DNA of 33,107 bases from Nemertoderma westbladi (GCA_032718475.1 JAUCBJ010004114.1:1-33107), one strand, 5' to 3'; shown: positions 7,362 to 27,814, counted from the stretch's first letter. Translations and numbers: made by a program. Notes: a model not told the origin generated them from the letters alone.

Positions 7362-7916
7362 TGTTAGCTTATCCAATTCCGCTAACGACCCCATAAAGTG
7401 AGCCGTTAAGCAATATTGGGAACACGAGGTTGATTACCAATATCAACCTCGTGTCACCCCAATAAAGTGGGAAGGATAAACATACGCACAATAGGGGTCA
7501 GGGGTTACACCCCTGAAAGAGAGAGAATAGCAAGGGCGAAGGGAAGCACTTCAGGAGAGGTAAAAGGGCGACAACAGGGTTATTAGCCAATGGGGGGAAG
7601 GCACCGGCTGAGTAACGTAACTTGGCCAACCGTGCAATATATATTATCAGTACAGTAATCATTTCTTTCACTTGTAGTAAGTCAGCTTAGCTAGGGTAGT
7701 ACCGGAACTTCAATTACCGTCTTCGTATACCATCCGTGTATCCAATATCATATCTTATATTTTGTGTTATCATACTTTGTGCCTTATATTATATCCTATA
7801 CTATTATACCCGGAACTATATACAGCGATCAATAAACTCTCTTTAGCTTTCACACACGGCGGGGACGCGTAGATTGAAAACCGGATAAACCGGGATCCTC
7901 CATAGATCCCGTCACA
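7362..7916 (+). repeat. 5' LTR (555 bp)
   Basis: Starts TGTTAG and ends GTCACA. TATA-like AATATATATT at ~7636 and AATAAA at 7831. About 7 differences by eye from the 3' LTR over 494 aligned bp. Confidence 0.93.
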
Positions 7917-7925
7917 GTAATTGAA
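7917..7925 (+). promoter_or_regulatory. Non-tRNA primer-binding site candidate, complementary to LTR-internal 7709-7717
   Basis: GTAATTGAA directly abuts the LTR end, has no TGG, and is the exact reverse complement of TTCAATTAC at 7709-7717. Confidence 0.65.
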
Positions 7926-7997
7926 AGCCAAACTGCTGCCCTAGTTAAACGGTAACTAAAGACCAACAGCCCAAACTGACTGCCAGATACCAGCAAG

Positions 7998-10560
7998 ATG
8001 AGTCAAAAGGGAGAAACGACACCGCCGCGGACCCCGGACGGAGACCTGACGATCCGTGAGGCCGCGACCAGACGGTATAGACCCGCGACGCCGGACCCAT
8101 CGGTAACGGGCGATCCGGCAATCCAAGGTAAGGGGGGCTGTCTGCAACCGGAGAGCGAGTCGAGAGAAGGAGGAGACAAGAAGGGAGAAGAGAAAGACGA
8201 GTCGACGCGGAGCAAGGGTCGACGTACCGATGTCGCTGGCCAGCCACAGGCCGAGGGCGACGGACGGCCCACCGGAATGGCGACGGTGGGGCCGACGGTA
8301 CGACGCCGGACCTGGAGAGAAGGAGGAGATGTCGGCGATGAGGACGTCGGGGTCAGCGATCGACTTTGACGGGCCTACAACGCGACCCGGAAGCTGCTTA
8401 AAGAGGCCAAAGGAGGGGCGAAGATAGATGAGGTAAAGTTGAAGAAAAGACTACATGAGTCGAATGAACATTTCAAATACCTAATGCGCTTTGGACAGAG
8501 AGAACTAGCCGAGAACAGAGCGAGAGGGGTTGCCAGCGAACTGTCTGATCTATGGAAGTGTATGGGTATGCGGGCTAGTGTAGTGTACATAGGGCCATAC
8601 TTAGTCGATGCCCGGGGAATAAAATCAGTGGGTTGGAGGAGACCGCAGGAGGGCGAATCCGAGGTTAACCCTGAAGATTCGGTCTCGTCGGTCGGAGAAA
8701 GTTCCGGGAGGCGGGGGAAAGTTAGTAGGATGGGAAGACGGAGGGAATCCGTCACAACCGATAAGGCTGCTACATCCTCCGCAAAAGGAAGACAGGTGGC
8801 GGCAATAAATCTGGCGTGCGAACTCGATCTGGCGGCGCAGAGTCAGAGAGAATTCGAGAGACGGTTAGAGGAAGTGAGCGCGCTATTAGAGAAGGAGAAA
8901 GAACTAGTTAGAGAAAATAGAGAGAAAGCTGAGAAGGTCGCGAGAAGCTTTAGGGAGCGTGAGGCGAGAGAGCAAAGTGAGCGCAAGGAGCGTGAGGCGA
9001 GAGAGCAAAGTGAGCGCAAGGAGCGTGAGGCGAGAGAAACAGAGTTAATGAAACAGAATTTGCAAGAGGATACAGAGAGAGAGAGAACGGGAAAGCGTGT
9101 GCGGGATGGTATACATACAGGCCCAGATAAGCGAACTTATTGAGTATCAAACCAGAAAGAAACACAAACTGAAAATGGCGCAGATGGGGTTGTCAGAGAG
9201 TGACGCTGGCTCGAGTGCTCTCGAAGAGCCAAGGGCCGTGGATACATTTATTAATACCCCACGTACAGGGACCGCACGACAGACCCGAGTCTGGTATGAC
9301 CGTACGGGCGGGGGGGGGGGGGGGGGGGGTGGGGTAATAATAATAATACAGTAGACGACGTTAATATTAATAGTACCGTATTGGATAATTCTAACCAAAC
9401 CTTTATTCCAGGAAATACTTTACCTAGTAGTAGTAATTTAAACTTAAATACAAATAATCCAAATAATTTAAATAATAGTACGAATTCGAATTTACAAATT
9501 AATCCAAATAATTTAAATAATGATCCAAATCCGAATTTGCAAAATAATTCAAATAATGTACCCACGCAAAATAATTCAAATAATCTTATCTCGAACGAAC
9601 AAAATAATTCTGTTTCTAATTTTGGTGCACAAAATGATTTAGGTGAACTAGGGGACCAAATTGGTTTAACAGGCGACAATCACAGTGGTGCTATTAATGT
9701 GAACGTGTCGGACGTACGCAACCCGGCAGACGGGGGCCTGGTAGGCCACGTAGTTGGTAGGCAGGAGGTGGCGGGGTTGAGCCAACCCGAGGTGGGCCTG
9801 GTAGGCCACGCAGTAGTAGAGAGAGAGGCGGGGGTGAATAGACCCAGCCTTAGTAGAGACAGTGCGTCGACTAGAGAAGGGTGTAGAGGTGAAGTAGGAG
9901 ATGGTGAAGTTAGATGCGGTAGGTGGGGGGGGGGGGGCTACGGGCGCCCCACCACGACAGATTAGTAGCGAGGGGGGTGGGCAGAGAGTGTCCCGCAGGC
10001 GTCGGCGGATAATGTGCGGGCCGAGCTAGGTAAACCGCAACACCCGGCGACGGAGAGTAATAGGGGGATTGCGAGTATCCCCAGCGGCGTGCGATCGAGC
10101 AGAGAGAGGCAGGTTGACGTCGCGAGAGGGCGGACAAAGCGTCGAGCCCGATCAGAAGAGGAAAGAAGAACAGTGGAGTTTAACCGGGAGATGGACGAGA
10201 GATCTCACGAGCGGGAATACTGCACTGAAAAGCGGAAGAGAAGAAGAGAAAAGAAGAAGAGAAGATAGTAGAAAAGGTGTCGCCGCAAACGATAGGAGTG
10301 CGAGGACGGATAGCGGACCGTCGATAGTAGAGATGGAGTTACGGAGTCAGTGGGGTCGAACTTCGGGAGATTGCCGTCGCCCCGGAGAAACGCACCACAC
10401 GCCAAGAGAGGGGTACAGGACGTACCGATACAAAGTCGAGAACAGGAGAGGGGATCGAAGAGAAGCTTCCCGACGGGATATAGCTGCCGATCGAGAGTGC
10501 GGTAGTCGCGGCGAGATTTGAGATTCGCGAAGATTAAACTTCGGTTCGAAAGGGCACTTG
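7998..10560 (+). pseudogene. gag: gag-like N-terminal region, frameshifted and 3'-truncated
   Basis: First ATG after the 5' LTR. Broken ORFs contain a PEDSVS motif (typical of BEL gag N-termini), an E/R coiled coil with 33-bp repeats (EREAREQSERK), and N-rich and R-rich segments. The start MSQKGETTPPRTPD resembles the ORF start after the 27815 LTR. Confidence 0.65.
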
Positions 10561-11669
10561 CAGACAGCAGGACATACTGTAGGCCTTACTGCACATTAGG
10601 GCGGTGCGTTTATTACTTTTTTTCGATTTCATTGTTCTACCGGTGCACAAAAGTTGCCAAATGGTAAAAAAATAAGGCAAAAAAAATTTCATTAAATTTC
10701 GTCTATATCTTCACGGATCCCAAGAGGGTTGAAATTTTGAGCCATCACGATTCACCATAATGAAATTTATAACAATATAACACATTGATGAAAGATCAAT
10801 GACTCAAAAAAGAACTTCCTGCATGCATCAAATGTCATCAAATGGGTCCAAACTTAGTTAGATACCAAAATTTTAATTTTTGGATTAAGGGAAGTAGTGC
10901 CACAGGCACATGACCAGAACCTACTCTTTGGCGCAAGTGATGATTATTCTCAATTTGGGTGATGGACAACTTTTAGTTCTCCTACGGCATTAATATTATG
11001 CTCATTAGAACCGCAATGACCGATTTAGTGGGGGTAGACACCATCAAAACAAGCATAGAGCGAATAGTTCTTAAGATATTACAGAAAATGTTAAGTACCC
11101 CTGCAAACCACCAACGTTAATCTAACGTTGGGTTTATGTTAGACATTCGTTAAAAAATGATAGTTAGAATTTAACCATAAACCTACGTTAAAATACGTTA
11201 GAATTCTGTCAATTTTTAACGTTAATTTTTTACAGTAATTATACGTCAAAAATTTACAAATATCGGACATTTCCAAATTTTTTAACGTTGATTTAACGTT
11301 AATTTTTAACGTTCATTATTAACGTTAATTTAGCATTAAAATACATCAGATTTTAACGATGATTAGTGAATCACTTAACTGATTCATCAATGGATAACAT
11401 GTCTAGCTGACCATCCGCTGACTTTGTTCATTTCTTATTTTGTTAAATTTTTATGATACTTGTGTAACTTTTTAAATATTATTTTTAAATATTTGCCTTA
11501 CTAGTCAGCATCTGTGTACCAGTACCAAGCGTACAGTATAAAAGTACAGTAAGTAAGCGTACGGTAGAAAAAGGGTGGAAAGAAGGATCTAGAAGATGCT
11601 AGTGGGGCTGCAGCCGATAGCGAAGATGAATGAATATTATATATCGATAAAAACTTGGCCCTAATTACT

Positions 11670-12222
11670 TTTCGGTTAACTTTATGAAAGTGGATGTACG
11701 TTTCAGTTAACTTTATGAAAGTGGATGTACGTTTCGGTTAACTTTATGAAAGTGGATGTACGTTTCGGTTAACTTTATGAAACTGGATGTACGTTTCGGT
11801 TAACTTTATGATAGTGGATGTACATTTCGGTTAACTTTATGAAACTGGATGTACGTTTCGGTTAACTTTATGAAACTGGATGTACGTTTCGGTTAACTTT
11901 ATTAAACTGGATGTACGTTTCGGTTAACTTTATGAAAGTGGATGTACATTTCGGTTAACTTTATGAAAGTGGATGTACGTTTCGGTTAACTTTATGAAAC
12001 TGGATGTACGTTTCGGTTAACTTTATGAAACTGGATGTACGTTTCGGTTAACTTTATGAAACTGGATGTACGTTTCGGTTAACTTTATGAAAGTGGATGT
12101 ACGTTTCGGTTAACTTTATGAAACTGGATGTACGTTTCGGTTAACTTTATGAAACTGGATGTACGTTTCGGTTAACTTTATGAAACTGGATGTACGTTTC
12201 GGTTAACTTTATGAAACGGATG
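11670..12222. repeat. 31-bp tandem array, ~17-18 copies
   Basis: Unit TTTCGGTTAACTTTATGAAA(C/G)TGGATGTACG, head-to-tail with no spacers. Confidence 0.95.
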
Positions 12223-12712
12223 AGTCCGGTAGCAACCTACGGGTCTCTGAACTATAGATCTAAGCCTCCCATTGATAAATGAAAATTCCACAAATTTCTA
12301 ATTCCGAATTCCAAAAATTCCACATTTCCAAAGCCTACTTTATAGTGTTATAGAAATTAAATTCAGAATTTCATACAAGAAAAAATCATACATAATTATT
12401 GATTTTTTCATTGATCAATTACACGAGATTATGAATTTAAGCTTATGGTTTTAACACTTGAATTTGTTCAAAATTACATTTCACTGTATGTAACTGGCAA
12501 TTTGAAAATCTATCGTAATGTGATAATAACGTGTATTATTAATATTATATCTAATACATAATTATTATATGTATTATTGATTAATCATACGTAATGTGTT
12601 AATTGTGAGATAATACAATATAATTTTGTCAATATTAAGTGGCAAAGTTGTCTTCGGCCGTTAGGCCAGGGAAAACATTACTCACAAAGTCTGACGACTT
12701 GTTTCCAGATAA

Positions 12713-12942
12713 GGGGGCGTTCATAAAGTATGTCACGCACTAGGGGGAGGGGGGGGGGGGTAGAGCTTTCGTGACATTTTGTGACAGGTGGGAGGGGGGT
12801 GTCGACCTTTGTGACGGTCACGGCGATGCATGCAATTAAATAAATTTACGAAAAGGGGTTTTTTGTGACAGAAGGGGGGGGGGGGGGGGGGGGGGGGTCA
12901 AAAAAATGGAAAATTTGCGTGACATACTTTATGAACGCCACC
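12713..12942. mobile_element. PIF/Harbinger (Tourist-like) MITE, 230 bp
   Basis: 27-bp TIR GGGGGCGTTCATAAAGTATGTCACGCA with one mismatch; TAA on both flanks (12710-12712, 12943-12945). Confidence 0.88.
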
Positions 12943-12959
12943 TAATTCCACCATATATT

Positions 12960-13140
12960 TATTCACCAGAGGATACTCCAGTACCCATTAAAGGACGCCC
13001 TTGAGAAATGCGCCCTAGCTCGTCCCTTTAAAGCGTTCGTCCTGAAACGAAAACTCTCCCGACCCCTTTGCGGGGATCGAACCCATGACCTCTGGAGAGA
13101 TGTTAATTAAAGGCAAAGGATTAACACTACACAAACTACA
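12960..13140 (-). mobile_element. Possible tRNA-derived SINE head
   Basis: Minus strand has the B-box-like GGTTCGATCCC (~13073-13084) with a weak A-box-like stretch upstream. No complete cloverleaf; boundaries are uncertain. Confidence 0.4.
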
Positions 13141-13817
13141 AGGACGGGAAGAACATAAAAAATGTTAGATTTTTGCTTGATCAAATGTGGCGTCGAATGC
13201 TGGACATTGACATTGACATATAGATTATCTATCATTACTAATATCAATATTAATTATAACAACACATTTTGATGCTAACAAATACTATAGTATTTGTAAT
13301 TTCTCTGAATGCTATTTTTAATGCAACTACGGCGACAATAAACCAAGAGGGATTCGAGCTGAGTTTCAGCAGAGTAAATGCAATACAAAAGACCGCAACT
13401 ACTTAAATTTATGCAAAAAAAACCGTAAGTCAACAAGACTTGCGGTTTTTTATCATTAGAATTTAATGAGGATTTCACATCTGGAAATGGCTTGGCGAGA
13501 TCTGTTGTATGCATTTTCAATAATTACTAGAAGTAGCTCCGATGAGAGAAAGCTTTTAATTTAAATGATGTTATTAATTCCATTAGTCATCTGAGGTCAA
13601 CCCACCCTACCCTAACTGTTTAATATGATACTGCCTTCTTAGGTTGTTTCGAGTTATCACTGTCTACCGGTCTGACCGTCAAGATGTAAATTTAGACAGA
13701 GCCAGATAAGATAATAGCAATTGTTTGGAATATGTGATTATTTGACGTTAATTAACGTTAAGGTAATTAAGCGTTAATTATTATAATTATGTTTTTATCA
13801 CTGTCAGTTGTTTGTAA

Positions 13818-14038
13818 TTTTTTAACGTTAAATACAATATATTTTGACGATCCAAACTGATTGTCAGTAATATGTCATTTTTTAACGTTAAACATACAAT
13901 ATATTTTGACGATCCAAACTGATTGTCAGTAATATGTCATTTTTGAACGTTAGACATACAATATATTTTGACGATCCAAACTGATTGTCAGTAATATGTC
14001 ATTTTTTAACGTTAAACATACAATATATTTTGACGTTA
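13818..14038. repeat. 62-bp subterminal tandem repeat, ~3.5 copies
   Basis: TTGTCAGTAATATGTCA recurs at 13861, 13923 and 13985. Confidence 0.9.
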
Positions 14039-15014
14039 ATTTGCGTTAATTTTTAACGTTAAAAGGGCGGCCAAACTAACGTTATTTATATGTATTATTA
14101 ACGTTAATAATTAACGTTGGCATTGTCAGAAAATAACGTATATTAATGCATTATTAACGTTAAATTGTTTGCAGGGACGGCACAAGTCAACATTACTGCC
14201 TTGATGATTCATAGACAAATACACAAAAATGTTACTTCTAATTATCTTAAGGCATCAAAAATAGACACATCACTGCAACAAATTGATTTAGTGTATACAG
14301 AGACCTTCAAAATTAAAGAGTAGTGATTAATTCACTATAGTTTTTGTACAAAATGTGTGGAATGGGTCAACTCAATATCAAGTAGTAATTGGTGGATATA
14401 GTCTTGACATTTTGTAAAATAACTCAAAAACTAATGACTCTACTCTTATTTTGAAGGTGTCATCACCCATTATTTCGATCATTTCTGTGATGTGTCTATT
14501 CTTGATTCCTTGAGATAATTCAATATATCATTTATAGTGTATTTGTCCATATCACATCAAGGCGGTAATGTAGACTTGTGCCGTACTTCACATTTTCTGC
14601 GATATCTCAAGAACTATTCGCTCTACGTTTGTTTTGAAGGTGTCTACCCCCACTAAATCGGACATTGCGGTTCTAATGAGCATAATATGAATGCAGTAGG
14701 AGAAATCAAAGTTGGCCATCGCGAAAATTGAGAATAATCATCACTTGCACCAAATGGTAGGTTCTGGCCATGTGCCTGTGGCACTAGTTCCCTTGACCCA
14801 AAAATTAAAATTTTGGTATCTAACTAAGTTTGAACCCATTTGATGACATTTGATGCATGCAGGAAGTTCCTTTTTGAGTCAGTGATCTTTCATCAATGTG
14901 TTATATTGTTATATATAACGGCATATAACCGGCACTCAGAGCGTCACATGCAGGCGAGGAGACGTAGAGGATATAAAATGTAGATAGAGTAGAGGGAGTA
15001 GATGTAGAGGAAGA

Positions 15015-15655
15015 GGGTATGTATTACCGTTAGCTAGAGGAGTTAGTATGGGTAGTAAGAGGGTACGTAGTACCGTTAGCTAGAGGAGTTAGTAGGGGTA
15101 GTAAGAGGGTACGTAGTGCCGTTAGCTAGAGGAGTTAGTAGAGGTAGTAAGAGGGTACGTAGTGCCGTTAGTTAGAAAGTTAGTAGAGTCAGCAGAGGTA
15201 GAGAGTCAGTAGAGTTGGCAGAAGTAGAAAGTTAGAGAGTTGGAGAGTTAGTAGAGAGTAAATGGAGTTAGCAGAGTTAGTAGAGCTAGTGGAGTAGACT
15301 TAGTAGAGAGTTAGTAGCGGAGTTAGAGTTAGTAGTAGAAGTTAGAGAGTCAGTAGAGTTAGAGAGCTAGGGAGTTAGCAGAGCTAGTGGAGTAGAATTA
15401 GTAGAGCTAATCAGTAGAGTTAGAGAGCTAGGAAGTTAGCAGAGCTTAGTAGAGCTAATCAGTAGAGTTAGAGAGCTAGGGAGTTAGTAGAGCTAGTGGA
15501 GTAGAGTTAGTAGAGCTAATCAGTAGAGTTAGAGAGCTAGGGAGTTAGTAGACCTAGTGGAGTAGAGTTAGTAGAGCCATCTAGCAGAGTTAGTAGAGCT
15601 AGTGGGGTTAGTAGAGTTAGCAGTAAGACAGTAGAGACCATAGAAGTAGTAGCTA
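15015..15655 (+). repeat. Purine/TAG-rich tandem and low-complexity repeats
   Basis: ~46-bp units GAGGGTACGTAGTACCGTTAGCTAGAGGAGTTAGTA..., followed by degenerate TAGAGTTAG/TAGAGCTAG repeats. Confidence 0.85.
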
Positions 15656-15699
15656 GAAAGGGTAGATAGGGTAATAGCACAGAATAGGGGCAAATATCA

Positions 15700-15910
15700 G
15701 GATCACCTCCGAACTACAGAAGGGCCTTCTAGGTGGCTTTCGGAGGTCTGGTAGACCATCCGGGGCTGGAGGGCGAGTCGGTGTAATACAACAGCCGGCA
15801 TCCAGTAGACAGGGAGGTGGATACACAAGAGAGCTGGGAGAAGTTGGAAGCGGATAGACTGGAGGGGAAGCGACTGGAAGAAGTCGCCAGGCGAGAAAGG
15901 CAGAGAGAGA
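15700..15910 (+). pseudogene. Fragment of the accessory (exonuclease/zinc-knuckle) ORF
   Basis: Aligns by eye to ~24267-24480 (GSP.NYRRAF..AF.GLVDHPGL.GESV.YNSRH) with in-frame stops. Confidence 0.85.
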
Positions 15911-16728
15911 GTAGTGGGTAGTAGGAATGAAGCGCATTATGTAGACGAGCATATAATACATAATATAATAATTATAATTATAATATTATAAAAAATTATA
16001 TAATAACTCGTATATATATTATACAGTATGTACCGTAGTCAAGCACAACCTTTTCCAATTAGCTACTGGGACTGGGGACTAATTGACTAGGGTGACAGGA
16101 CGGGACTTAGATGGCTTCCACCAACATGATGTACACATGTGTGGGACCCGAAAAGTGTGTGGTCATTGAACAACAGGGCGGAGTTCAGGATTTACTGTGA
16201 AAGCTCGTATCCTCCGGGATAAGAATCGTGCGGATGGGCACTACCGGGATAAGAGTAGGAGGGGCACTTGGTGGGACCACAGGCATGGAGAGCGAGGAGT
16301 ACGAGAGGAGTATGAGAGGAATGTGAGAAGAGTATGGGAGGAGAACGTAAGAGAGATAGCGAGAGGTGGTGTGGAGATAGTATGGAGAGAGTGTGGGCGC
16401 AATTCAAGTGTGGGGGGGAGAAGTGAGAGGAAGAGTGTGGGACGAGGAGGTCCGAGAGTATGCGAGAGTTAGGGTGAGAGTCGAGGAGAGTTAGGGCGAA
16501 AGTGTTGGGGAAACAAAAGTTGTGTGAGAGAAGCGCACGATCGGCCCGACACGGGACGCCAGACAAACGGGGTAGCATTATCATACCCATAGGGAGCGGC
16601 CTGGAAAGCCGGCTCCGAGAGAAAATAGTTCCACCCCACACCCGATAATAGATCGAGTTTCTCGCGGAATTAAAGCGCACTTTGAGGTTGATGCTATCTT
16701 CTCACCGGGAAGATAGCATGGGGGGGAG

Positions 16729-17296
16729 TGTGAGCAAATCAATTCCGCCTCACCAAACCCCATAAAGTGAGCCGTTAAGCAATATTGGGAACACGAGGTT
16801 GATTACCAATATCAACCTCGTGTCACCCAACAAAGTGGGAAGGAGAAAACACACACACACACGCACAATAAGGGTCAGGGGTTACGCCCCTGAAAGAGAG
16901 AGAATAGCAGGGGCAAAGGGAAGCACTTCAGGGAGGGTGAAAGGGCGACAACAGGGTTATTAGCCAATGGGGGGAAGGCACCGGCTGAGTAGTGATTATG
17001 TGGCCAACCGTGCAATATATATATTACCGGTAACCGTGTCATTCATTCAGTTCAGCTAGTCAGTGCAGTTAGGGTGGAGCGGGAACTTCTATCACTGTCC
17101 GCTACCGCCATCACATGTAATACTTTACCGGTATATCATTCAGCTATCTTCTGTGTCTATGTTCTATTTATTATTTATACATATGCCTATCAACAACATC
17201 GGGACTCTCATTGCAACAAACTCTTTTCATACACGGCGGGGACGCGTAAGATAGAAAACCCAAAAGGATAAATCGGGGTCGACCGATCCCGTCACA
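16729..17296 (+). repeat. 3' LTR of the nested element (568 bp, different subfamily)
   Basis: TGTGAG...GTCACA, preceded by a PPT. U3 is very similar to the 7362 LTR while R is diverged. Confidence 0.92.
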
Positions 17297-20109
17297 CGTA
17301 CCATAAACATACCGGTCGACGAACCGAACACGGACAGGACATATTACTTGCCACTCCACGTGGCTTTAGATCCGAAGAAAGGTAAACTGCGGATGGTAGT
17401 GGATGCATTAAGAGACACAGTAAAGGGAAAGGAAGATAAGTACAGCACTAGAGCCGTCAATATGATTCGACGCGGCTTCTACGTAGACGATGGGATGGAG
17501 TCTGGAAACACGATTGAGGAGCTACTGGACACAGGGCGCAAGGTTCGCGACATCCTTAAAGGATCCGGCTTCAACCTGACCAAATTTCAATCCAGTTCGA
17601 AGGAATTTATCGAGGCGATAAGGGATGAGAGACCAGGATTGACCATGGATAATCCCACAACAGCCAAGCGGCAGGACATGGCGAACAAGAGAATAGAGTC
17701 TCAACAGAAGGCGCTGGGAATCGTGTGGAACAGAGAGATGGATGAACTGAAGTACCAGTTGAGTCAGGAGGGCGCAGATACCCACACAAAAAGGGGTTAT
17801 GTGTCATACACAGCAAGGATATACGATCCCCTAGGCCTAGCATCCCCACTACTAGTCACGGGGAAACAGATACTCAAGAGAGTATACAAGCTAAAGGACG
17901 AGTGGGACACAGAGGTCCCGGAAGAGATTAGAAAGCAGTGGTATAAGTGGACATGGGAACATACAGCATGCCACGAGTGTATTTCCCGGATGGGGACATG
18001 ACGAATCTGGACCTACACATGTTCTCCGATGCGTCGTTGGAGGCATACAGAGTGGCACTCTATTTAGTACAATGAGAGGGGGCTCACAAGCCCAGACTCG
18101 CCTTCAGCAAAGCGAAGTCAACGCCACCAGATTCAGCATCAGTTCCCAAACTAGAATTGACAGCTGCGGGACTAGGAGTTACGGCTACAGCCTACCTAAT
18201 GGACGCTATTCCCAACATAGTGGAGACGCACTACTGGACAGATTCCATGGTAGTGCTTGGTTGGCTACATAATGAAAGGACGAGATACCCTATATTCGTC
18301 GCGAATAGGGTGGACGAAATAAGGGCGACCACAGAACTGGAAAGGTGGCACTACTGCCCAACGGACGAGAACCCGGCGGACTTGTTATCGAGGGGCATGG
18401 TACGCCACACTTTCTTGAAGAAGGAAGTATTGTGGCAACACGGGCCACAGTTTCTGAGTGATAGGGAGGCCTGGCCGCCGATGAGAAAGGTGGACCCGGG
18501 CTTAGGAGAAGTAGTGTCAGAAGGAGAAGAGGGAGACTCAGAGGGAGAGGAGATATACTCCCAGATGGTGAGGGAGATAAGGGACGTGCAACCAAAACCA
18601 GGAGAACTGTGCGATAACCCGACGGATAAACTCCTTAACTACAGTTCTAGTTGGTACAAGACCAAGAAGTTAGTGGCATACTGGAGAGCCTTCCGGAATT
18701 TCCTCAGGGGAGTTGGTAGAGACGTGAAGATTAGAACGACAATAGACCTGGAAGGAGCGGCCAAAGCAGTAATCCGCTACGAGCAGAGGAAGAACTACAG
18801 CGACGAGGTGGAGAGCGTCGGTAAGCAACAGCATCTCCGGCGGGACAGCGAGCGGATCACGCTGTCACCACAACTTAATGACGACGGGATTCTAGTAATG
18901 AACTCTAGGGTGGGATACAACAACAGTATCGTCGTACCACCGAAGCCCATCATCATCCCCACAGGATCGCCAATAGTCCACTAGATTATCTGGGACTCCC
19001 ACAAGTCGATATTGCACGGGGGCACCAACCGAACCCTCACGGAGATAAGGAGGACCTTTTGGGTCAAACAGTTGAGGAAGAAGGTAAAGGCGGTAGCGGG
19101 GCAGTGCCAGACCTGCCGACGAGCGAAGAAGGAGCGAGCCATACAGGAGATGGCACCACTACCAGCAAGTAGGGTAAGACAGCACGACCAGCCATTTACA
19201 CATTGCGGTATGGACATGTTCGGGCCGATAAAGATCAAGGTGATGCGGCACACGGAGAAACGCTACGGTATTATCTTCGTATGTAATAACACGCTGGCGG
19301 TAGGGATAGCACTCGCCCAAGATGCAACCGCATCGGCATTCATTAATGCCTTAGAGAGGTTTAGAGACCGCAAAGGTGGGACGATCGCAGTAATATACTC
19401 AGACAACGGGACCAACTTTGTGGGGGCGGAGAACGAAATGGCAGAGGCCTTGGATATCCTGGAAGGAGAGGAAGTCAGGGCAGCCATGAGGCGACGACAA
19501 GTAAAATGGGAGAGGAGGACGCCGTATGCACCGCATACCCTAGGATGCGTCGAGAGACTAGTGGGTAGTTTGAAGCGTCGGATGACGAAGTTGATGAACA
19601 CCCATATGGTCACGGAGGATGTGCTAAGGACAGTACTTGCGAAGTGTGAGGGTATCATTAATAGCAGACCGCTATATCCAGAGAATGATGACCCTGAATC
19701 GCTAGACGTACTGACACCCAGCCATTTCCTAATGGAAAGGCCAGCGACCATCGATATGCGGGGTGTAGACCCAGATGACATACACTCACGCCAGAGTTGG
19801 AAAGTTGCTAAGGCGATAAGCGCAGAGTATTGGAGGAGATGGGTTGAGGAATACCTACCCACGCTTCACAGAAGAAGTAAGTGGAGGAAGACGAACAGAG
19901 AGCTGAAAGAGGGTGATCTCGTGATCGTCACGGATGATACCATCATCAACAACCAGTGGCGGTTGGCGAGGGTTGTAGGCACTTACTCCGATGAGGACGG
20001 AAGAGTCCGATCGGTAGAAGTGCGGATAGGTGGCAAGATTGGTGCCAAAGACAGGAAAACCTACAAAAGGGCTGTAGGGAAGTGCTGTCATCTGGAAGGA
20101 GCACCTTGA
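17297..20109 (+). pseudogene. pol: BEL/Pao pol: partial RT, RNase H, integrase
   Basis: RT: YYLPLHV..PKKGKLRMVVDA, FYVDD, GFNLTKF, YDPLGL. RNase H: LHMFSDAS, PKLEL.AA, WTDS, FVANRV, ENPAD. Integrase: H..HGG..CQTC, MDMFGP, SDNGTNF, ERLV, WRRWVEEYLPTL. Frameshifts at ~17960-18160 and an in-frame TAG at 18982. Confidence 0.95.
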
Positions 20110-20271
20110 TATAAAGCAAGAGTAGAGTTTAGTCGTCCAAGTTTTGGACTGAGGGGGGCGGGATTGAGGGCGAGACGCCCTTCCCACACAAAAAAAATAA
20201 AATAAAAAAAAATAATAATAATAATAATAACTAGGTACGCAGTAAGTAGGCGGATAGAAGTTAGTTAATTC

Positions 20272-20600
20272 AGTAAGAGAGAGTAAGAGTTAGAGGGTAC
20301 GTAGTACCGTTAGTTAGTTAGAGAGAGTAAGAGTTAGAGGGTATGTAGTACCATTAGTTAGAGAGAGTAAGAGTTAGAAGGTATGTAGTACTGTTAGTTA
20401 GTTAGAAAGAGTAAGAGTTAGAGGGTACGTAGTACCGTTAGTTAGAGAGAGTAAGAGTTAGAGGGTACGTAGTACTGTTAGTTAGTTAGAGAGAGTGAGA
20501 GTTAGAGGGTACGTAGTACCGTTAGTTAGTTAGAGAGTGTAAGAGTTAGAGGGTACGTAATACCGTTAGTTAGAGAGAGTTAGAAGTTAGTAAGAAAGTA
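20272..20600 (+). repeat. 40-44-bp purine-rich tandem repeat after pol (~7 copies)
   Basis: Unit GAGAGAGTAAGAGTTAGAGGGTACGTAGTACCGTTA(GTTA)GTTA. Confidence 0.9.
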
Positions 20601-21101
20601 TGTAGTACTAGTTAGTAAGAGATAGAGGTAGAAGGGTATATATAGTATAGATATCAGTCAGTAGTTAGTAGCGAGAGGGGGGCATATGAGTACAGCTGGA
20701 TAAATCGTGTAGGCCGCGCGACGCATACTGTTGTACTGCACAAGCCCACAGAGTAGGCCAGAATGTGGATTAGGAAATAGAATGATCCATAGGCAATAGT
20801 AAGTAGTAGGACAGTAGAATTCAAATTAGATTAAAATAAAATAAAATAGGGCTGATAAATTAACAAATTACAGTAACAATAGAAAGGAAAATTCTGGAAT
20901 ATAATAAAAGTAACTGACAAAATTCGCAATTTAGGTACAATTTGGTAGCTACAGAAATAATGCAGTGTAAATAGGCTAATTAACTTAGTAATCCAGAGGG
21001 AGATAGGCCATCGAACTGAAATAAACCATCTAAACCTCACTCATCCTATAACGCCTTGGTAAGGCACCACCCAAAGGGTGAGCGATCGGGAAGAGTTCGA
21101 G

Positions 21102-22043
21102 ATGGCAAGCAAACTTGTGCGAAAGAGAAAGGCAGAGCTAGGAGGAAAGGAGATACTGGAGGATTTCACCAAGAGACATCCGGAAGAGAGGACGAGGGGA
21201 TACTATGAGCGGTTAGAAAAGGGTCATGCAGCACGAGCGTTACAGGACCACTTTAGGGAGATGCATGAACAGCGGCTGGTCGGGACCTACGGGACGCCGT
21301 CGCTGGACAACGTGATCTTCGAACATTTCCACTACGTGGTGAAAGTAGACGAGGCGAAGTTCGGGATTCCGAAGTACGCGAGAGAGTCACCGAGGAAAGA
21401 TTGGAAGAGGTTCATAGAGTCCGTCAACAGGGGGGGATACATTTTCCTAGACAACGAAGGGACCGTGGAAGACGAGGAGGGTTCAAGGAGAGGATCGGCG
21501 GGATCGGCCAGAAGCTTACTCCTACATTTGGCCGCGCCAAATGGGGACATTTTCCTGTTTGACCTAGGAACGTATGGGAAGAAGGAGTTCCGGTGGGGCT
21601 TCTTTAACATCAATCAGGAGGCTCACATGGAAATTATCAAACAGAGGCTTCCGTTTACCTACCAGGAAGTGGTGACGGCGGCATCGTATGCCGGGGTGAT
21701 AAATACGCAGAGGTATTTGGATAGGTGGACGCCACAGAACAAAGGAGAGTTTAGGGATTTCTTGGCGGAGCATGTGCCGCAGGCAATGAAGATGATCTTA
21801 TGGGACGCCACCAGGGGGAGACAACAGGGCCACTCGGAGGGGCCACCCGTGAAGCGATATCGGGAGCTGATAACACCGGCACCCAAGGAGCCAACGACCG
21901 GGATCAGTAAGGAGGTGGCGGCGAGAGTCCGAAGACAGAAAGCAGATCCCAGAGGAGTGGCAGTAACCAGGAAACGACCCAGGGAGGAGGACGGCAAAGG
22001 GAAAGACTTGAGGTGGTTCCCAAAGGCTGGTGGAACGAACTAA
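21102..22043 (+). pseudogene. Accessory ORF copy 1, with an in-frame internal deletion of 1608 bp
   Basis: Highly similar to 23310-25862 but joins GTYGKK directly to EFRWGFF at an AGGA microhomology (21583-21586). Keeps ExoI-like FLDNEG but loses the rest of the exonuclease and the zinc knuckles. Confidence 0.85.
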
Positions 22044-23309
22044 GACTTCTGTGTAACATGCCTGGAAGGCACCACGCGAGACGTGCGAACTCTTAAATAC
22101 AAATTCAAATAATGTAAATAATCGAATAAGTGCAATTTGTATGTACGTATGTAGCAATCGGTAATCTAGTAATAAAATATATTTTCGAAGTAAGTACTAT
22201 AGTTATATAACCTTTCTCAACTAGCTACTGGGACTGGGGCCAACTGACTATGGCGCTATGGACGAGACAATAGACAATTTCACACTTCTTGAGTGCGACG
22301 GCACAGGGGGAGGGGTGAGATTCGTCAGGAGTGAGTGAGTAAGAGGAGGGGTCGAGAAAAGTGTGATAGTGCGGAGTGCGAAGAGAGCGTGAGCGCAATT
22401 CAAGTGTGGGGGGGGGGGGGGAGAAGTAAGAGGAAGATTGAAAGACGAGGAGGTTCGGGCGTACGTAAGAGTTGGGGTGAGAGTAGAGTAGAGTTGGAGT
22501 GGCGAAAGTGTTGGGGAAACAAAAGTCGTGTGGGAGGAGCGCGCGATCGGCCCGACACGGGACGCCAGGCAAACGGGTAGCGTTATCATACCCATAGGGA
22601 GCGGCCTGGAAAGCCGGCTCCGAAAGAAAATAGTTCCACCCCACAAACGATACTAGGTCGAGATCCAGCGGAATTGTAGTGCACTAGAGGTAGATGCTAT
22701 CTTCTCACCGGGAGGATAGTAAGAGTAAGAGTAAGAGAGAGTAAGAGTTTAGAGGGTACGTAGTACCGTTAGTTAGAGAGAGTTAGAAGTTAGTAAGAAA
22801 GTACGTAGTACTAGTTAGTAAGAGATAGAGGTAGAAGGGTATATATAGTATAGATATTAGTCAGTAGTGAGTAGCGAGAGGGGGGCATATGAGTACAGCT
22901 GGATAAATCGTGTGGCCACGCTACGCATACTGTTGTACTGCACAGGTCCCACAGAATAGGCCAGAATGTGGATTATAAAATAAAATAATCCATAGGCAAT
23001 AGTAAGTAGTAGGACAGTAGAATTTAAATTAAATTAAAATAAAAATAAGAATAGGGCTAAAAATTAGCAAATTATGGTAACAGTAGAAAAGGAAATTCTG
23101 GAATATAATTAAAGTAACGGACAAAATTGTGATTTAGGGTACTTTTAGTAGCTTCATAATTAAGTAGTGTAAAAAAAAATAGGCAATAACTTAGAAATTC
23201 AGAGAGAGATAGGCCATCGAACTGAAATAAACCATCTAAACCTATCACTCATCATATAGCGCCTTGGTAAGGCACCACCCAAAGGGTGAGCGATCGGGCA
23301 GAGTTCGAG

Positions 23310-25862
23310 ATGGCAAGCAAACTTGTGCGAAAGAGAAATGAGGAGCTAGGAGGAAAGGAGATACTGGTGGATTTCACCAAGAGACATCCGGAAGAAAGGA
23401 CAAGGGGATACTACGACCGGTTAGAAAAGGGTCACGCAGCGCGAGCGCTACAGGACCACTTCAGGGAGGTGCACGAACAGCGGCTGGTCGGGACCTATGG
23501 GACGCCGTCGCTGGACAACGCGATCTTCGAGCATTTCCACTACGTGGTGAAAGGAGACGAGGCGAAGTTCGGGATTCCGAAGTACCCGAGGGAGTCGCCA
23601 AGGAAGGATTGGAAAAGGTTCAGAGAGTCCGTCAACAGGGGAGGATACATGATCCTAGACGACGAAGGGACCGTAGAAGACGAGGAGTGTTCAAGGAGAG
23701 GATCGGCGGGATCGGCCAGAACCATACTCCTACATTTGGCCGCGCCAAATGGGGATATTTTCCTATTTGACCTGGGAACGTATGGGAAGAAGGATGGGCC
23801 GAAGTTGGACCGGCTGCCGAGGGCGGTGCAACTCCTAGTAAGAGAGAATTCGACAACGAAAGTGGGATCGGAGATTCGCGACGACGCGGAGAGAATCATC
23901 GGTCCGGACACCCCCAACCTCCTGGATATGCAGACGGTCTTCATGGCTATGACAGCACCAGACGGGTTGGGACTAGTCGAGAACACAGGCCATAGCGGAA
24001 TGGTGGCGATGGGCCAGCTATTGGGGCTCGTATGTCACAAACCAATGGACTGGGGGAAGTTTAGGGAAGAGTACGGAGCAGAATTAGTGAACTCGCTGAA
24101 GTGGGGAGCGAGGCCGGGAAAACAAGAGGTGTATCAATTCCGAAGAGGAGCGATAAAGGCATATCAGAAGCGATATATCCTGCAGGAGGACTGGATAATT
24201 ATAGGTTTGCATAACCTATTCATGACCATGGTTATCGAGAGGGAACCAGCGGCATTCCTATTATCGGGATCACCCCTAAACTACAGAAGAGCCTTTAAGA
24301 CGGCTTTCGCGGGTCTGGTAGACCACCCGGGGCTGAGGGGCGAGTCGGTGTACTACAATAGCCGACATCTAGTAGATGGGAAGATAGATACGCCGTATCA
24401 AAGATGGGAGCAGCTAGAGACGGATAGACGAGAGGCGAAGCGACTGGAAGAAGTCGTTAGACGGGAGAGGATAGAAGCAGAGGAAAGGGAGGAGGAAGCC
24501 AGGGCACAGGGCTACGGCTTCGAGGAACAGGCGGGCTTAGATGAACTTCATTGGACTTCATCAGGGAGTTCGGCGGAGTCTCTAGGACGAGAACTGGGAT
24601 GGACGGTGGGATCACCGAAACAGTCGACGTCGGGATTGCAAGCGACGCCCATACCAGCGGGCGCCGAGGGCGACAAGCCACTAAGGAAGCTAGGGGAGCT
24701 AGAGGGCGAGAGCCAAGGCAGGAAGGAACATAGTGGATCCACCGGGATACCGGGGTTGGAGCCACTGCCAGAGGAGGATGAAGACGACGATGAGTTCGGA
24801 GAGATGCCGCCCATTGGGAGGATCGGCCACTCAGACACGGACTGGGTTGGCGGGAGGGTGGTGACGGCCAGTGGGGCGAGGGCCTTCTGGGATAGACCCG
24901 GCAAGCGGGCCTGGGTGCACGAGGAGCCGGCGATGGATTTCGCGGGGAGCACTATCAGGTTGGGTGAACAACCGGGGACGGCACCACGAGTAGTATTCGG
25001 GGAGACAATGCCCGAAAGGGGCACGGAGATCGACGTAGATCGGGACACTAACGTCCGGAAGTTCGCTTACCAGCGACTCCACAGACCGCGGAGATTGCTT
25101 GGGACGAAAGACGACGTGGGGCGGGAGACATTGGTACTCGGTTGCGACTACTGTGGGAGACAGACCCACCAGGAAAGGAGCTGTCTGTACCGGTTCCAGA
25201 AGGGAACTAGTTGTCTCTATTGCCGCGAGTCGAGCCACAGGATGGGGGCGTGTCCACGGTTGCATAACCGATGTTCGAAATGTAACTTCCGGGGACATTG
25301 CGGACGCCAGTACGACTGGATGGACGACAAAGAGAAGTTTAGGATCTTCGAGGAGTGGGCCGACATTGGGGCGATGACTCGGTAACGTATGAAGGCCCAG
25401 GAGTTCCGGTGGGGCTTCTTTAACATCAATCAGGAGGCTCACATGGAGATTATCAAACGGAGGCTTCCGTTTACCTACCAGGAAGTGGCGACGGCGGCAT
25501 CATATGCCGGAGTGATAAATACGCAGAGGTATTTGGATAGGTGGACGCCACAGAGCAGAGGAGAATTTAGGGATTTCTTGGCGGAGCATGTGCCGCGGGC
25601 AATGAAGATGATCTTATGGGACGCCACCAGGGGGAGACAACAGGGCCACTCGGAGGGGCCACCCGTCAAGCGATACCGGGAGCTAATAACACCGGCACCC
25701 AAGGAGTCAACGACCGGGATCAGTAAGGAGGTGGCGGTGAGAGTCCGAAGCCAGAAAGCAGACAAGACTAGAGGAGCGGCAGTGACCAGGAAACGACCCA
25801 GGGAGGAGGACAACAAAAGGAAAGACTTAAGGTGGTTCCCAAAGGCTGATGGAACAAACTAA
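23310..25862 (+). CDS. Accessory ORF copy 2: DEDDy 3'-5' exonuclease-like domain, coiled coil/acidic linker, CCHC zinc-knuckle cluster; one in-frame TAA at 25383
   Basis: ILDDEGT (ExoI), LLHLA...IFLFDL, LPRAVQLLV....TKVGSEIRDD (ExoII), LLDMQ, G..AM..LLG...HK, QKRYILQED (ExoIII-like) follow the WRN/EXD/Mut-7/RNase D motif order. CDYCGRQTHQERSC, CLYCRESSHRMGAC and CSKCNFRGH form the knuckle cluster. The first ATG (gagATGg) at 23310 is taken as the start. Confidence 0.75.
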
Positions 25863-26542
25863 GACTGCGGTGTAACATGCCTGGAAGGCACCACGCGAGA
25901 CGTGCGAACTCTTAAATACAAATTCAAATAATGTAAATAATCGAATAAGTGCAATTTGTATGTACGTACGTAGCAATCAGTAGTCTAGTAACGAAATATA
26001 TATATTCGAAATAAGTACTATAGTCATATAACCTTTCTCAATTAGCTACTGGGACTGGGGACCAATGGACTATAATACTACCAGGGACGAGACATTGGAC
26101 GACATCACGCTTCTTGAGTGCGACGGCACAAAAGGGAGGGGTGAAACTCGTCGGGAGTGAGTGGTCACGATAGGGGTTGAGTTGTAGTGCGGAGAGAGCG
26201 CGGAGTATAGAGAGAGTGCGAGCGCAATTCAAGTGTGGGGGGGGGGGAGAAGTAAGAGGCAGATTGAGGAACGACGAGGTCCGAGAGTGTGTAAGAGTTG
26301 GGGTGAGAGTAGAGTAGAGTTGGAGTGGTGAAAGTGTTGGGGAAACAAATGTCGTGTGGGAGGAGCGCACGATCGGCCCAACGCGGAACGCCAGACAAAC
26401 GGGGTAGCATTATCATACCCATAGGGAGCGGCCTGGAAAGCCGGCTCCGAGAAAAATAGTTCCACCCCACACCCGATACTAGATCGGGATCCAGAGGAAT
26501 TGTAGCGCACTAGAGGTGGATGCTATCTTCTCACCGGGAAGT

Positions 26543-27036
26543 CACGAGGTTGATTACCAATATCAACCTCGTGTCACCCCAATAAAGTGGGAAGGAGAAA
26601 CATATGCACAATAGGGGTCAGGGGTTACACCCCTGAAAGAGAGAGAATAGCAAGGGCGAAGGGAAGCACTTCAGGAGAGGTAAAAGGGCGACAACAGGGT
26701 TATTAGCCAATGGGGGGAAGGCACCGGCTGAGTAACGTAACTTGGCCAACCGTGCAATATATATTATCAGTACAGTAATCATTTCTTTCACTTGTAGTAA
26801 GTCAGCTTAGCTAGGGTAGGACCAGAACTTCAATTACCGTCTTCGTATACCATCCGTGTATCCAATATCATATCTTATATTTTGTGTTATCATACTTTGT
26901 GCCTTATATTATATCCTATACTATTATACCCGGAACTATATACAGTGATCAATAAACTCTCTTTACCTTTCACACACGGCGGGGACGCGTAGATTGAAAA
27001 CCGGATAAACCGGGATCCTCCATAGATCCCATCACA
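26543..27036 (+). repeat. 3' LTR of the outer element, missing its first 61 bp and the PPT
   Basis: Matches 7423-7916, ends ATCACA and is followed by the TSD CGAAC. Confidence 0.93.
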
Positions 27037-27814
27037 CGAACTGGCCAGTGGGTTTGATTACATAATAGCAGCATCTATTGAAAGTTCTTGGCGAACTGGC
27101 CAGTGGTTTTGTTTACATAATAGCAGCATCTGATGTAAGCTCTTCGCGAACTGGCCAGTGGGTTTGTTTACATAATAGCAGCATCTGTTATAAGTTCTTG
27201 GCGAACTGGCCAGTGGGTTTGATTACATAATTACTAGCAGCATCTGTTGTAACTTCTTCGCGAACTGGCCAGTGGGTTTGATTACATAATAGCAGCATCT
27301 GTTGTAAGTTCTTGGCGAACTGGCCAGTGGTTTTGTTTACATAATAGCAGCATCTGTTGTAAGTTGTTGGCGAACTGGCCAGTTGGTTTGTTTACATAAT
27401 AGCAGCATCTGTTGTAAGTTCTTGGCGAACTGGCCAGTGGCTTTGATTACATAATAGCAGCATCAGTTGTAAGTACTTGGCGAACTGGCCAGTGGGTTTG
27501 TTTACATAATAGCAGCATCTGTTGTAAGTTCTTGGCGAACTGGCCAGTGGGTTTGTTTACATAATAGCAGCATCTGTTGTAAGTTCTTGGCGAACTGGCC
27601 AGTGGACTTGTTTACATAATAGCAGCATCTGTTGTAAGTTTTTGGCGAACTGGCCAGTGGGCTTGTTTACACAATAGCAGCATCTGTTGTATGTTATTGG
27701 CATACTGGCCAGTGGGTTTGATTACATAATAGCAGCATATGTTGTAAGTTCTTGGCGAACTGGTCAGTGGGCTAGTTTACATAATAGCAGCATCTGTTGT
27801 AAGTTCTTCGCGAA
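27037..27814. repeat. 55-bp minisatellite, right part (~14 units)
   Basis: Same unit as 6887-7361, resuming in phase after the TSD. Confidence 0.95.

What the first reader, a model, noticed from the sequence alone, without database searches (positions are those of the whole stretch)
23310..25862. Env-position accessory gene encoding a DEDDy 3'-5' exonuclease fused to CCHC zinc knuckles
Seen: a ~850-codon ORF between integrase and the 3' LTR with no obvious signal peptide or env-like transmembrane architecture. It has ExoI DxE (DDE/DNE), KVG..I.DD ExoII and a Y-x3-ED ExoIII-like motif (~23650-24200), then an acidic linker and two CX2CX4HX4C knuckles plus CX2CX3GH (~25143-25300). Established: this motif order is that of WRN-exo/EXD/Mut-7(Nibbler)/RNase D nucleases, several of which trim small RNAs. 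I recall an exonuclease in a nematode BEL-clade element, so the capture may have precedent (verify), but this domain fusion is unfamiliar to me. Inference: a piRNA/siRNA antagonist, RT proofreader or primer-processing enzyme.
Basis: partly seen in the sequence, partly recalled or inferred. Interest (0 to 1): 0.85.

Follow-up and report, generated by a model that had tools for sequence, protein, structure and literature searches.

The report
Retrotransposon gene: exonuclease plus zinc knuckles
A broken copy of a BEL/Pao jumping gene carries, where a virus would keep its envelope gene, an extra gene for a protein with a predicted RNA-trimming exonuclease fold and three zinc knuckles; many related elements keep this gene, some without its cutting residues, so it likely acts mainly by gripping RNA, possibly to blunt the host's small-RNA defence.

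Summary
The domain call holds; the intact ORF does not. 23310-25862 is 691 codons, an in-frame stop (25383-25385) and 158 more codons. The stop is private to this copy, and an internally deleted tandem copy lies between it and the integrase. The N-terminal domain is a DEDDy exonuclease of the EXD2/WRN group: family profile to EXD2 E 8.5e-11; predicted fold Z 10-12 to NrnC, Nibbler, WRN and RNase D. The fourth acidic residue is Glu here. Three Cys/His knuckles and an unnamed conserved C-terminal domain follow; there is no env character. A motif scan gave 120 metagenome loci. Of 80 with flanks, 62 have the exonuclease domain and 40 also have an integrase upstream; 9 of 9 pols tested are BEL/Pao. 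Integrase and exonuclease trees agree (rho 0.85). One whole clade has lost the catalytic residues yet keeps dN/dS 0.03-0.45. RNA binding is therefore the likely core function; counter-silencing is my best guess (0.4), untested. DEDDy ORF3s are published for rotifer Gypsy-like elements, and exonuclease plus CCHC for trypanosome RNase D. I found no BEL/Pao report. New variant of a known kind.

The parts
7362..7916 (+). 5' LTR of the host element (TG...CA), preceded by the 5-bp target-site duplication; inserted in a 55-bp satellite
   Evidence: 492 of 499 aligned bases identical to the 3' LTR
7980..10540 (+). decayed gag-position region (short broken frames, no Pfam match); the gag label is inferred from position
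10765..14916 (.). inserted non-coding element with 334-bp terminal inverted repeats
14917..17296 (+). nested 3' end of a related subfamily: ORF3 remnant at 15694-15900 (71% aa identity to residues 318-387), purine tract, and its own LTR 16729-17296
17297..20109 (+). truncated, broken BEL/Pao pol: RT remnant, Peptidase_A17 region, integrase (H2C2, rve, DUF5641)
21102..22043 (+). first tandem copy of ORF3, open but internally deleted in frame (about residues 1-161 joined to about 697-850; 4-bp microhomology, no GT at the junction); about 90% identical to the second copy
23310..25862 (+). second tandem copy of ORF3, full length, broken by an in-frame stop at 25383-25385
23562..24260 (+). DEDDy 3'-5' exonuclease domain, EXD2/WRN-like (D117, E119, D192, Y289, E293)
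24510..25110 (+). acidic, poorly conserved linker
25143..25298 (+). three Cys/His zinc knuckles with a conserved P-x-L-H spacer and R-G-H
25340..25520 (+). unnamed conserved domain after the knuckles (F-E-x-x-A-D-x-G-x-x-T...W-G-F...Y); the stop falls inside it
26536..27036 (+). 3' LTR, lacking its first ~55 bases and the adjoining purine tract, followed by the 5-bp target-site duplication

Best explanation
This is a stop-broken copy of a conserved third gene of a BEL/Pao retrotransposon lineage, encoding a protein with a predicted EXD2/WRN-type exonuclease fold, three zinc knuckles and an unnamed tail domain, which likely binds RNA 3' ends and likely serves to blunt the host's small-RNA silencing. 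SHOWN: the position after pol as a separate frame; the motifs and predicted fold; co-divergence with integrase; purifying selection on both the catalytically complete and the degenerate versions; the decay of this copy. INFERRED: (1) the protein is made apart from Gag-Pol and is soluble; (2) the knuckles and tail grip single-stranded RNA and feed its 3' end to the exonuclease pocket, as TbRND's knuckles do; (3) lineages with D-E-D-Y/H-D/E would trim such ends, while the degenerate clade would only hold them, as Exd1 and Exuperantia do; (4) the target would be small silencing RNAs or their precursors, or the host factors that handle them, over-trimmed or sequestered so that the element's transcripts survive. 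Step 4 is the weakest.
For: Fold and family: atlas feature hit PF01612 at 0.94 (34% of that cluster carry it); a 7-sequence profile hits only EXD2, WRN and Egalitarian, 5 of 5 PDB hits; a 24-sequence profile hits EXD2 at E 8.5e-11; the AlphaFold model (pLDDT 69) has EXD2 and TbRND as top Foldseek hits and Z 10-12 to NrnC, Nibbler, WRN, Exd1 and RNase D. RNA-binding part: the profile matches Lin28, nucleocapsid and TbRND knuckles (best E 3.5e-4), and 13 columns of the knuckle module are invariant in 28 sequences (11 of them are partly forced by the search pattern). Function without catalysis: 23 of 59 complete domains are degenerate; 11 of the 12 with an integrase form one clade (99/99); they are homologous to the complete ones (hhalign 99.8%, E 2.8e-29), with dN/dS 0.03-0.45 in 10 pairs. 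Old, inherited gene: integrase and exonuclease distances correlate, rho 0.85, 0 of 999 permutations as high, 30 elements. Selection in the window's own family: paralogue dN/dS 0.18 and 0.31; 9 of 9 variants shared among copies are synonymous, against 6 of 27 private to this copy. Precedents for RNA roles of such domains: PMC7797062, bioRxiv 2025.08.03.668247.
Against: No activity, substrate, expression or partner was tested. The fold does not tell RNA from DNA substrates: WRN, NrnC and Pol I domains score as high as Nibbler. Nothing here points to small RNAs rather than the element's own RNA. The degenerate clade may have changed function, so one mechanism need not cover all. The degenerate profile alone hits no exonuclease in the PDB. 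In 2 of 42 pol-linked loci the knuckle module occurs without a recognisable exonuclease domain (L047, L059). PMC5408684 found no clear link between DEDDy ORF3 and copy number in rotifers. Most related loci share a few accession prefixes, so the number of independent hosts is unknown. dS is near 1 in many pairs, so dN/dS values are rough.
Confidence: 0.4

Rival explanations
1. The protein handles the element's own RNA: it binds a signal in the genomic or ORF3 transcript and trims, protects, localises or helps package it, in the manner of Egalitarian or Exuperantia, which would get the element into germ cells without an envelope.
For: Fits the dispensable active site and the nucleocapsid-like knuckles. 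Egalitarian is among the profile and fold hits; it binds localisation signals, including that of the I factor, without needing its catalytic residues. Tight co-divergence with pol suits a cis-acting partner. PMC5408684 proposes 3'-end processing of element RNA.
Against: The Egalitarian match is weak (E 0.48) next to EXD2. No motor-binding or RNA signal was identified. Gag already supplies knuckles for packaging (established knowledge).
Confidence: 0.3
2. The protein is a proofreading or end-processing partner of reverse transcriptase, removing mismatches or trimming primer or cDNA ends inside the particle.
For: The fold is shared with Pol I proofreading domains and WRN. 34 of 59 domains keep all four acidic residues. 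The window's element has a non-canonical sequence at the primer-site position that could pair with its own LTR.
Against: A whole clade of open-frame elements lacks the catalytic residues. ORF3 is a separate frame after pol rather than fused to it in the loci listed. 14 of 15 relatives examined show an ordinary TGG-type primer site, in both clades. Relatives are about 10 kb, within the family's normal range, so no genome expansion calls for proofreading.
Confidence: 0.12
3. The protein is a broader counter-immunity or host shut-off ribonuclease that destroys double-stranded or host RNA, as the arenavirus nucleoprotein exonuclease does.
For: Viruses have captured DEDD domains repeatedly, and the arenavirus one suppresses innate signalling (PMC7968707, abstract start in the listing). 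Giant-virus exonucleases match the model.
Against: It needs catalysis, which one clade lacks. A germ-line resident element would pay for general toxicity (inference).
Confidence: 0.1
4. The gene is a captured passenger without function for the element.
For: Both copies in this window are broken; 14 of 62 related loci have the domain and the knuckles in separate frames.
Against: dN/dS well below 1 in all 21 relative pairs that could be computed and in the window paralogues; only synonymous shared variants; retention across integrases of about 30% identity.
Confidence: 0.03

Closest known systems
DEDDy exonuclease ORF3 of bdelloid rotifer LTR retrotransposons Juno and Vesta, also on Athena/Terminon elements (Rodriguez, Kenefick, Arkhipova 2017, PMC5408684)
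   Same: Separate non-env ORF3 after pol; DEDDy/RNase D-like domain; no transmembrane segments; function untested; the same roles (RNA 3'-end processing, silencing) were raised there.
   Different: Those elements are not BEL/Pao (Gypsy-like is my recalled label); their motif is DEED, here DEDD, DEDE, His-type or degenerate; they are described as recent acquisitions, whereas this gene co-diverges with pol over a deep lineage; no triple knuckle or tail domain is described there (only a Cys-His-Cys motif in two families). Direct homology was not tested.
Trypanosoma brucei RNase D (TbRND; PMC7797062; PDB 7C42-7C4C)
   Same: DEDD exonuclease followed by C-terminal CCHC knuckles that bind RNA and raise cleavage; among the top Foldseek hits (TM about 0.52), and its knuckles match the family profile.
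   Different: Cellular guide-RNA trimmer with four knuckles and a 28-residue linker; here three knuckles, a linker of about 280 residues and an extra tail domain, on a mobile element. By sequence the domain is closer to EXD2. Probably convergent (inference).
EXD2 / WRN exonuclease / Nibbler (Mut-7) / Exd1 / Egalitarian group (Pfam PF01612)
   Same: Closest sequence and structural relatives of the domain; the three Exo motifs align. The group includes non-catalytic RNA binders (Exd1; Egalitarian works without catalysis).
   Different: Too diverged for Pfam: 0 of 22 relatives and neither window piece match an exonuclease family, and P0010 only at E 0.2. There are large family-specific inserts between ExoII and ExoIII. 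Knuckles are not part of these proteins (recalled).
Belpaoviridae (BEL/Pao) with an env-like third gene, such as Atlas and Cer13 (PMC8742986, PMC9094657)
   Same: LTR-gag-pol(RT-RH-IN)-third gene-LTR layout and BEL-specific pol domains.
   Different: The third gene is a soluble nuclease-fold protein, not a glycoprotein; the ICTV profile lists only env as a third gene.

Membership tests
DEDDy 3'-5' exonuclease (EXD2/WRN/RNase D group) | ExoI D-x-E | tested here: met
   D117/E119 align with EXD2's D-C-E; D in 39 and E in 42 of 69 aligned rows
DEDDy 3'-5' exonuclease (EXD2/WRN/RNase D group) | ExoII Asp | tested here: met
   D192 aligns with the ExoII Asp of EXD2 and WRN; D in 39, E in 10 of 69 rows
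DEDDy 3'-5' exonuclease (EXD2/WRN/RNase D group) | ExoIII Y-x3-D | tested here: inconclusive
   This lineage has Y-x3-E (window, P0002, P0009, P0010); the column has D in 37, E in 15 of 69 rows. Whether Glu supports catalysis is untested
DEDDy 3'-5' exonuclease (EXD2/WRN/RNase D group) | DnaQ-like (RNase H-like) fold | tested here: met
   Model pLDDT 69; 35 Foldseek hits at E<=0.001, those listed all DEDD domains; best Z 12.1, rmsd 4.5, 160 aligned
DEDDy 3'-5' exonuclease (EXD2/WRN/RNase D group) | metal-dependent 3'-5' exonuclease activity | not testable with these tools
   needs an assay
Belpaoviridae (BEL/Pao) | flanking LTRs of 0.2-1.2 kb, with a target-site duplication | tested here: met
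   555-bp LTR, TG...CA, 5-bp duplication
Belpaoviridae (BEL/Pao) | pol order RT-RNase H-integrase with BEL-type domains (Peptidase_A17, DUF5641) | tested here: met
   window; 9 of 9 upstream pols of relatives pass both Pfam cut-offs
Belpaoviridae (BEL/Pao) | tRNA primer-binding site after the 5' LTR | tested here: inconclusive
   No TGG start after this copy's 5' LTR; host tRNAs were not available; 14 of 15 relatives show a TGG-type site
Belpaoviridae (BEL/Pao) | polypurine tract before the 3' LTR | tested here: inconclusive
   Removed by a deletion at this 3' LTR; present before the two related LTRs in the window
Belpaoviridae (BEL/Pao) | RT phylogeny among reference belpaoviruses | not tested
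env-like ORF3 | signal peptide, transmembrane anchor, homology to a fusion glycoprotein | tested here: not met
   Maximum hydropathy 1.11; 46 of 51 long family ORFs stay under 1.8; no env Pfam match in 22 of 22
Rotifer DEDDy ORF3 (Juno/Vesta) | carried by Juno/Vesta-type elements; DEED motif | tested here: not met
   The carrier is BEL/Pao; the window motif is D-E-D-E
Rotifer DEDDy ORF3 (Juno/Vesta) | common descent of the exonuclease domain | not tested
   rotifer sequences were not obtainable with the remaining tools
TbRND-type RNase D | exonuclease followed closely by four CCHC knuckles | tested here: not met
   three knuckles, a long linker and an extra tail

The most novel reading that the evidence does not exclude
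A deep, unannotated lineage of BEL/Pao retrotransposons carries its own EXD/Nibbler-like anti-silencing factor: an RNA-end-binding protein that attacks or hides small silencing RNAs, and that has evolved inside the mobile lineage from an active nuclease into His-type and catalytically dead decoy forms, repeating the host's own path from exonuclease to Exd1-like adaptor. It would be a transposon-encoded piRNA/siRNA antagonist in animals built from the defence pathway's own enzyme class.
Probability: 0.3. Interest if true: 0.88.

Novelty: new variant of a known kind. Interest (0 to 1): 0.62.

Why it matters
Whether animal retrotransposons encode proteins that fight piRNA/siRNA silencing is an open question, and DEDDy ORF3s have had no assigned role since their report in rotifers. 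This family makes the question testable. It offers dozens of natural open-frame variants on one pol tree, including complete, Glu-type, His-type and dead active sites that can serve as built-in controls. It also shows that the third-gene slot of BEL/Pao is not limited to env, and it defines two domains (the diverged exonuclease and the knuckle-plus-tail module) that Pfam misses, so these genes are invisible in routine annotation. The window copy itself is a dead insertion and matters only as the entry point.

Tried and rejected
No result: Pfam on the two window pieces; single-sequence PDB search; word-index protein searches with the protein and with A1, while the domain alignment returned only 5 family members; single-sequence folding (pLDDT 32); related-locus search with the protein in metagenomes; the DNA pattern in viral contigs (0 matches). 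No whole genome is held. No RNA holder was listed, which says nothing about expression. A closer read-level look at the catalytic codons in the window's own family was not obtained, so their conservation there rests (40 of 457 differences shown, none in those codons) and on the paralogue. Rejected: (a) the short copy as a spliced cDNA, since no register of the junction begins with GT and there is a 4-bp microhomology; (b) the 158-codon frame as a separate gene or the stop as programmed readthrough, since the stop lies inside a motif that is continuous in relatives and is private to this copy; (c) self-priming as the reason for the nuclease, since relatives have TGG-type primer sites; (d) a Nanos-like zinc finger (recalled resemblance), since the knuckle profile hit no Nanos structure and only Air2 at E 7.8, and the atlas gave generic CCHC clusters under 0.9; (e) env. 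P0004 (a generic CCHC hit) was dropped from all alignments, and P0003 and P0007 lack the exonuclease part. L071 is a chance, out-of-frame match. Two of 12 planned 'live' dN/dS pairs failed in the script, and 4 of 5 His-type pairs were saturated or identical. Literature: the nematode precedent was not found, and the paper I recalled is not held.

Full report
WHAT IS IN THE WINDOW. The finding lies in a 19.7-kb composite LTR element, 7362-27036, with TG...CA ends and a 5-bp target-site duplication, inserted in a 55-bp satellite. The LTRs match at 492 of 499 aligned bases. The element is dead. The gag-position region is fragmented, and only remnants of RT, the Peptidase_A17 region and integrase match an open gag-pol of a relative. 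An inverted-repeat element and the 3' end of a related subfamily are nested inside, and the 3' LTR has lost its start and purine tract. Pfam assigns the pol remnant to BEL/Pao (Peptidase_A17, DUF5641).

THE OBSERVATION. The frame 23310-25862 has 850 codons before its final stop, but codon 692 is a stop. Upstream, 21102-22043 is a second copy of the gene with residues of about 162-696 deleted in frame, part of a tandem duplication of the 3' unit. A third remnant (15694-15900) sits before the nested LTR, so the gene is tied to LTR ends in two subfamilies. Contigs of four public runs (at most 3 samples, 3 studies, one organism label) were laid on the gene; 5953, 3738, 3614 and 47 records fit, and three runs cover all 30 bins, so the family is multi-copy. 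At the stop, all covering depth in X1, X3 and X5 and 99% in X2 reads another letter (23, 14, 3 and 24 contigs): the stop is private to this copy. Of the 40 differences shown (of 457), 36 lie in the gene outside the stop. The 9 that are shared among copies are all synonymous; of the 27 carried by this copy alone (at least 90% of X1 depth reads otherwise) 21 change the residue (Fisher p about 5e-5, computed by hand; the tool chose the rows by support). This is an active family under selection and a decaying copy.

THE DOMAIN. Pfam and single-sequence PDB searches give nothing. An exhaustive phmmer search gave 10 hits at E<=0.001; seven show the same exonuclease-linker-knuckle order, two hold only the knuckle part, and one was a generic CCHC protein that I dropped. 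A profile of 7 domains has D, E, D and Y invariant and hits only EXD2, WRN (three entries) and Egalitarian; with 24 domains, EXD2 scores E 8.5e-11. The model folded from the 7-sequence alignment (pLDDT 69, pTM 0.70) matches EXD2, TbRND, RICE, Egalitarian, NrnC, WRN, Pol I and Rrp6, with Z 10-12. The fold is secure; the substrate is not, because RNA and DNA enzymes tie. The fourth acidic position is Glu in the window and three relatives and Asp in most others. The C-terminal module has three knuckles (the third is usually completed by a more distant Cys) followed by an unnamed domain, F-E-x-x-A-D-x-G-x-x-T...W-G-F, in which the stop falls.

THE FAMILY. A degenerate DNA pattern for knuckles 2-3 found 120 metagenome loci (about 300 estimated) and none in viral contigs. 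Flanks came with 80. Of these, 62 have the exonuclease domain, 42 have an integrase upstream on the same strand, and 40 have both. Of the 22 with the domain but no integrase, 16 start within 700 bases of the contig end; L022 has gag and DUF5641 remnants; L052 is uninformative; L008, L032, L072 and L012 are unexplained. Two integrase-linked loci lack a recognisable domain, and 16 loci, mostly short, have neither. All 9 upstream pols tested pass the Pfam cut-offs for Peptidase_A17 and DUF5641; none of 22 ORF3s matches an exonuclease or env family. In 48 of 62 loci domain and knuckles share one open frame. The integrases are only 24-36% identical to the window's, yet integrase and exonuclease distances correlate (rho 0.85; 30 elements). 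Kin share history, so this shows joint inheritance, not co-adaptation. The loci were picked by the ORF3 motif and no ORF3-less outgroup was included, so a single capture is not shown. The window's own branch is long and unplaced. Most loci share a few accession prefixes, and the hosts are unknown.

CATALYSIS IS OPTIONAL. Among 59 complete domains (9 partial ones set aside), 30 have all four acidic residues with Tyr, 4 with His, 2 lost one residue and 23 are degenerate; after collapsing at 50% identity the counts are 19, 1, 1 and 12. Eleven of the 12 degenerate domains with an integrase form one clade (99/99; L015 lies apart). Their domain is homologous to the complete one over 270 columns, and dN/dS is 0.03-0.45 in 10 pairs, against 0.10-0.51 in 10 pairs of the complete type (one of which includes L024, which lost one residue) and 0.18 and 0.31 for the window paralogues. 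Selection thus keeps the fold and the knuckles after the active site is gone.

HOW IT LIKELY WORKS. A soluble protein with a DEDD pocket and RNA-type knuckles, kept without catalysis in one clade, is best read as an RNA-end binder that trims in some lineages. TbRND shows how knuckles feed RNA to such a domain, and Exd1, Exuperantia and Egalitarian show how such domains become binders. Of the possible targets I put host small-RNA silencing first (0.4), the element's own RNA second (0.3), proofreading or primer/cDNA processing third (0.12), and a general anti-immune ribonuclease fourth (0.1). Proofreading is weakened by the dead clade, by the separate frame and by ordinary TGG-type primer sites in 14 of 15 relatives (LTR ends were mapped exactly only for L013 and L023). 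No experiment or expression data support any target.

COMPARISON AND NOVELTY. DEDDy ORF3s are published for rotifer Juno and Vesta elements (PMC5408684; I read parts 1-3 of 5: abstract to discussion, no figures or supplement). Exonuclease plus CCHC is published for TbRND (PMC7797062; passages). The ICTV profile of Belpaoviridae (PMC8742986; whole text) names only env as a third gene, and the BEL/Pao survey PMC3118150 (word search and passages; supplements not read) never uses the word exonuclease. Library searches for BEL + retrotransposon + exonuclease + DEDDy (0 papers), BEL Pao with exonuclease or additional ORF, DEDDy/ORF3, Belpaoviridae + exonuclease, Pao/ORF3/copepod and Cer13 + exonuclease found no BEL/Pao exonuclease. 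PMC5718144, PMC6431247, PMC6338049, PMC5348765, PMC9094657, PMC11662393, PMC11599104 and two preprints were seen as passages or word counts only, and PMC7968707 only as a listing. Subscription papers, Repbase, Dfam and GyDB were out of reach, so the recalled nematode case stays open. Earlier unchecked notes of this scan describe Rrp6-like or DEDDh ORF3s, live and dead, in other LTR elements, mostly Gypsy; I did not test them, and they suggest the theme recurs.

VERDICT. A real, conserved accessory gene, seen here as a pseudogene copy. It is a new variant of a known kind: new carrier (BEL/Pao), new domain set, and a natural series from complete to dead active sites. Interest 0.62; 0.88 if it proves to be a small-RNA antagonist (probability about 0.3).

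Noticed in passing
window 7917-7925 and 7709-7717: The 5' LTR is followed by no TGG primer site; its first 9 bases are the exact complement of a stretch inside the same LTR (18 of 7902 control 9-mers do this). This family may self-prime in the manner of Tf1 (recalled), or the site may be mutated. One instance only; relatives have TGG sites.
   Followed up: partly
window LTRs 7362-7916, 16729-17296, 32493-33053: Three LTR subfamilies each can form a long-range stem in the 3' half of the LTR (-22 to -28 kcal/mol) although the arm sequences differ; covariation was not counted.
   Followed up: partly
window 20528-22713 and 22730-26539: Tandem duplication of the whole ORF3 unit (spacer, gene, 3' region) at about 90% identity inside LTRs that are 98.6% identical, so the two units probably came together by recombination between diverged family members.
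   Followed up: partly
L010, L044, L077, L079; L008, L016, L032, L072: Subgroups with His in place of the ExoIII Tyr (D-E-D-H-D), and with N-E-E-H-N; no pol was found upstream of L008/L032/L072 (910-1908 bases available).
   Followed up: partly
L047:3341-6529, L059:6880-9648, L061: BEL ORF3s that keep two knuckles and the tail but have an N-terminal part that the exonuclease profile does not recognise.
   Followed up: no
L005, L051, L043, P0008, P0014, P0015: Very long ORF3 variants (1100-1600 codons) with unknown N-terminal extensions; L051's gag-pol frame also has about 1000 extra N-terminal residues.
   Followed up: no
window 1400-6480: A 5-kb microsatellite: a 4-base repeat of one type switching to a second type.
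   Followed up: no
window 6887-7361 and 27037-27814: A 55-bp satellite array split by the element's insertion.
   Followed up: partly
window 10765-14916, 29384-30506, 30641-30900: Non-coding elements with long terminal inverted repeats (334, 344 and 102 bp); the first holds a 31-bp tandem array at 11542-12340.
   Followed up: no
window 31969-32325 (-): Fragment with a weak RVT_1 match (E 0.0027), probably a decayed non-LTR element.
   Followed up: no
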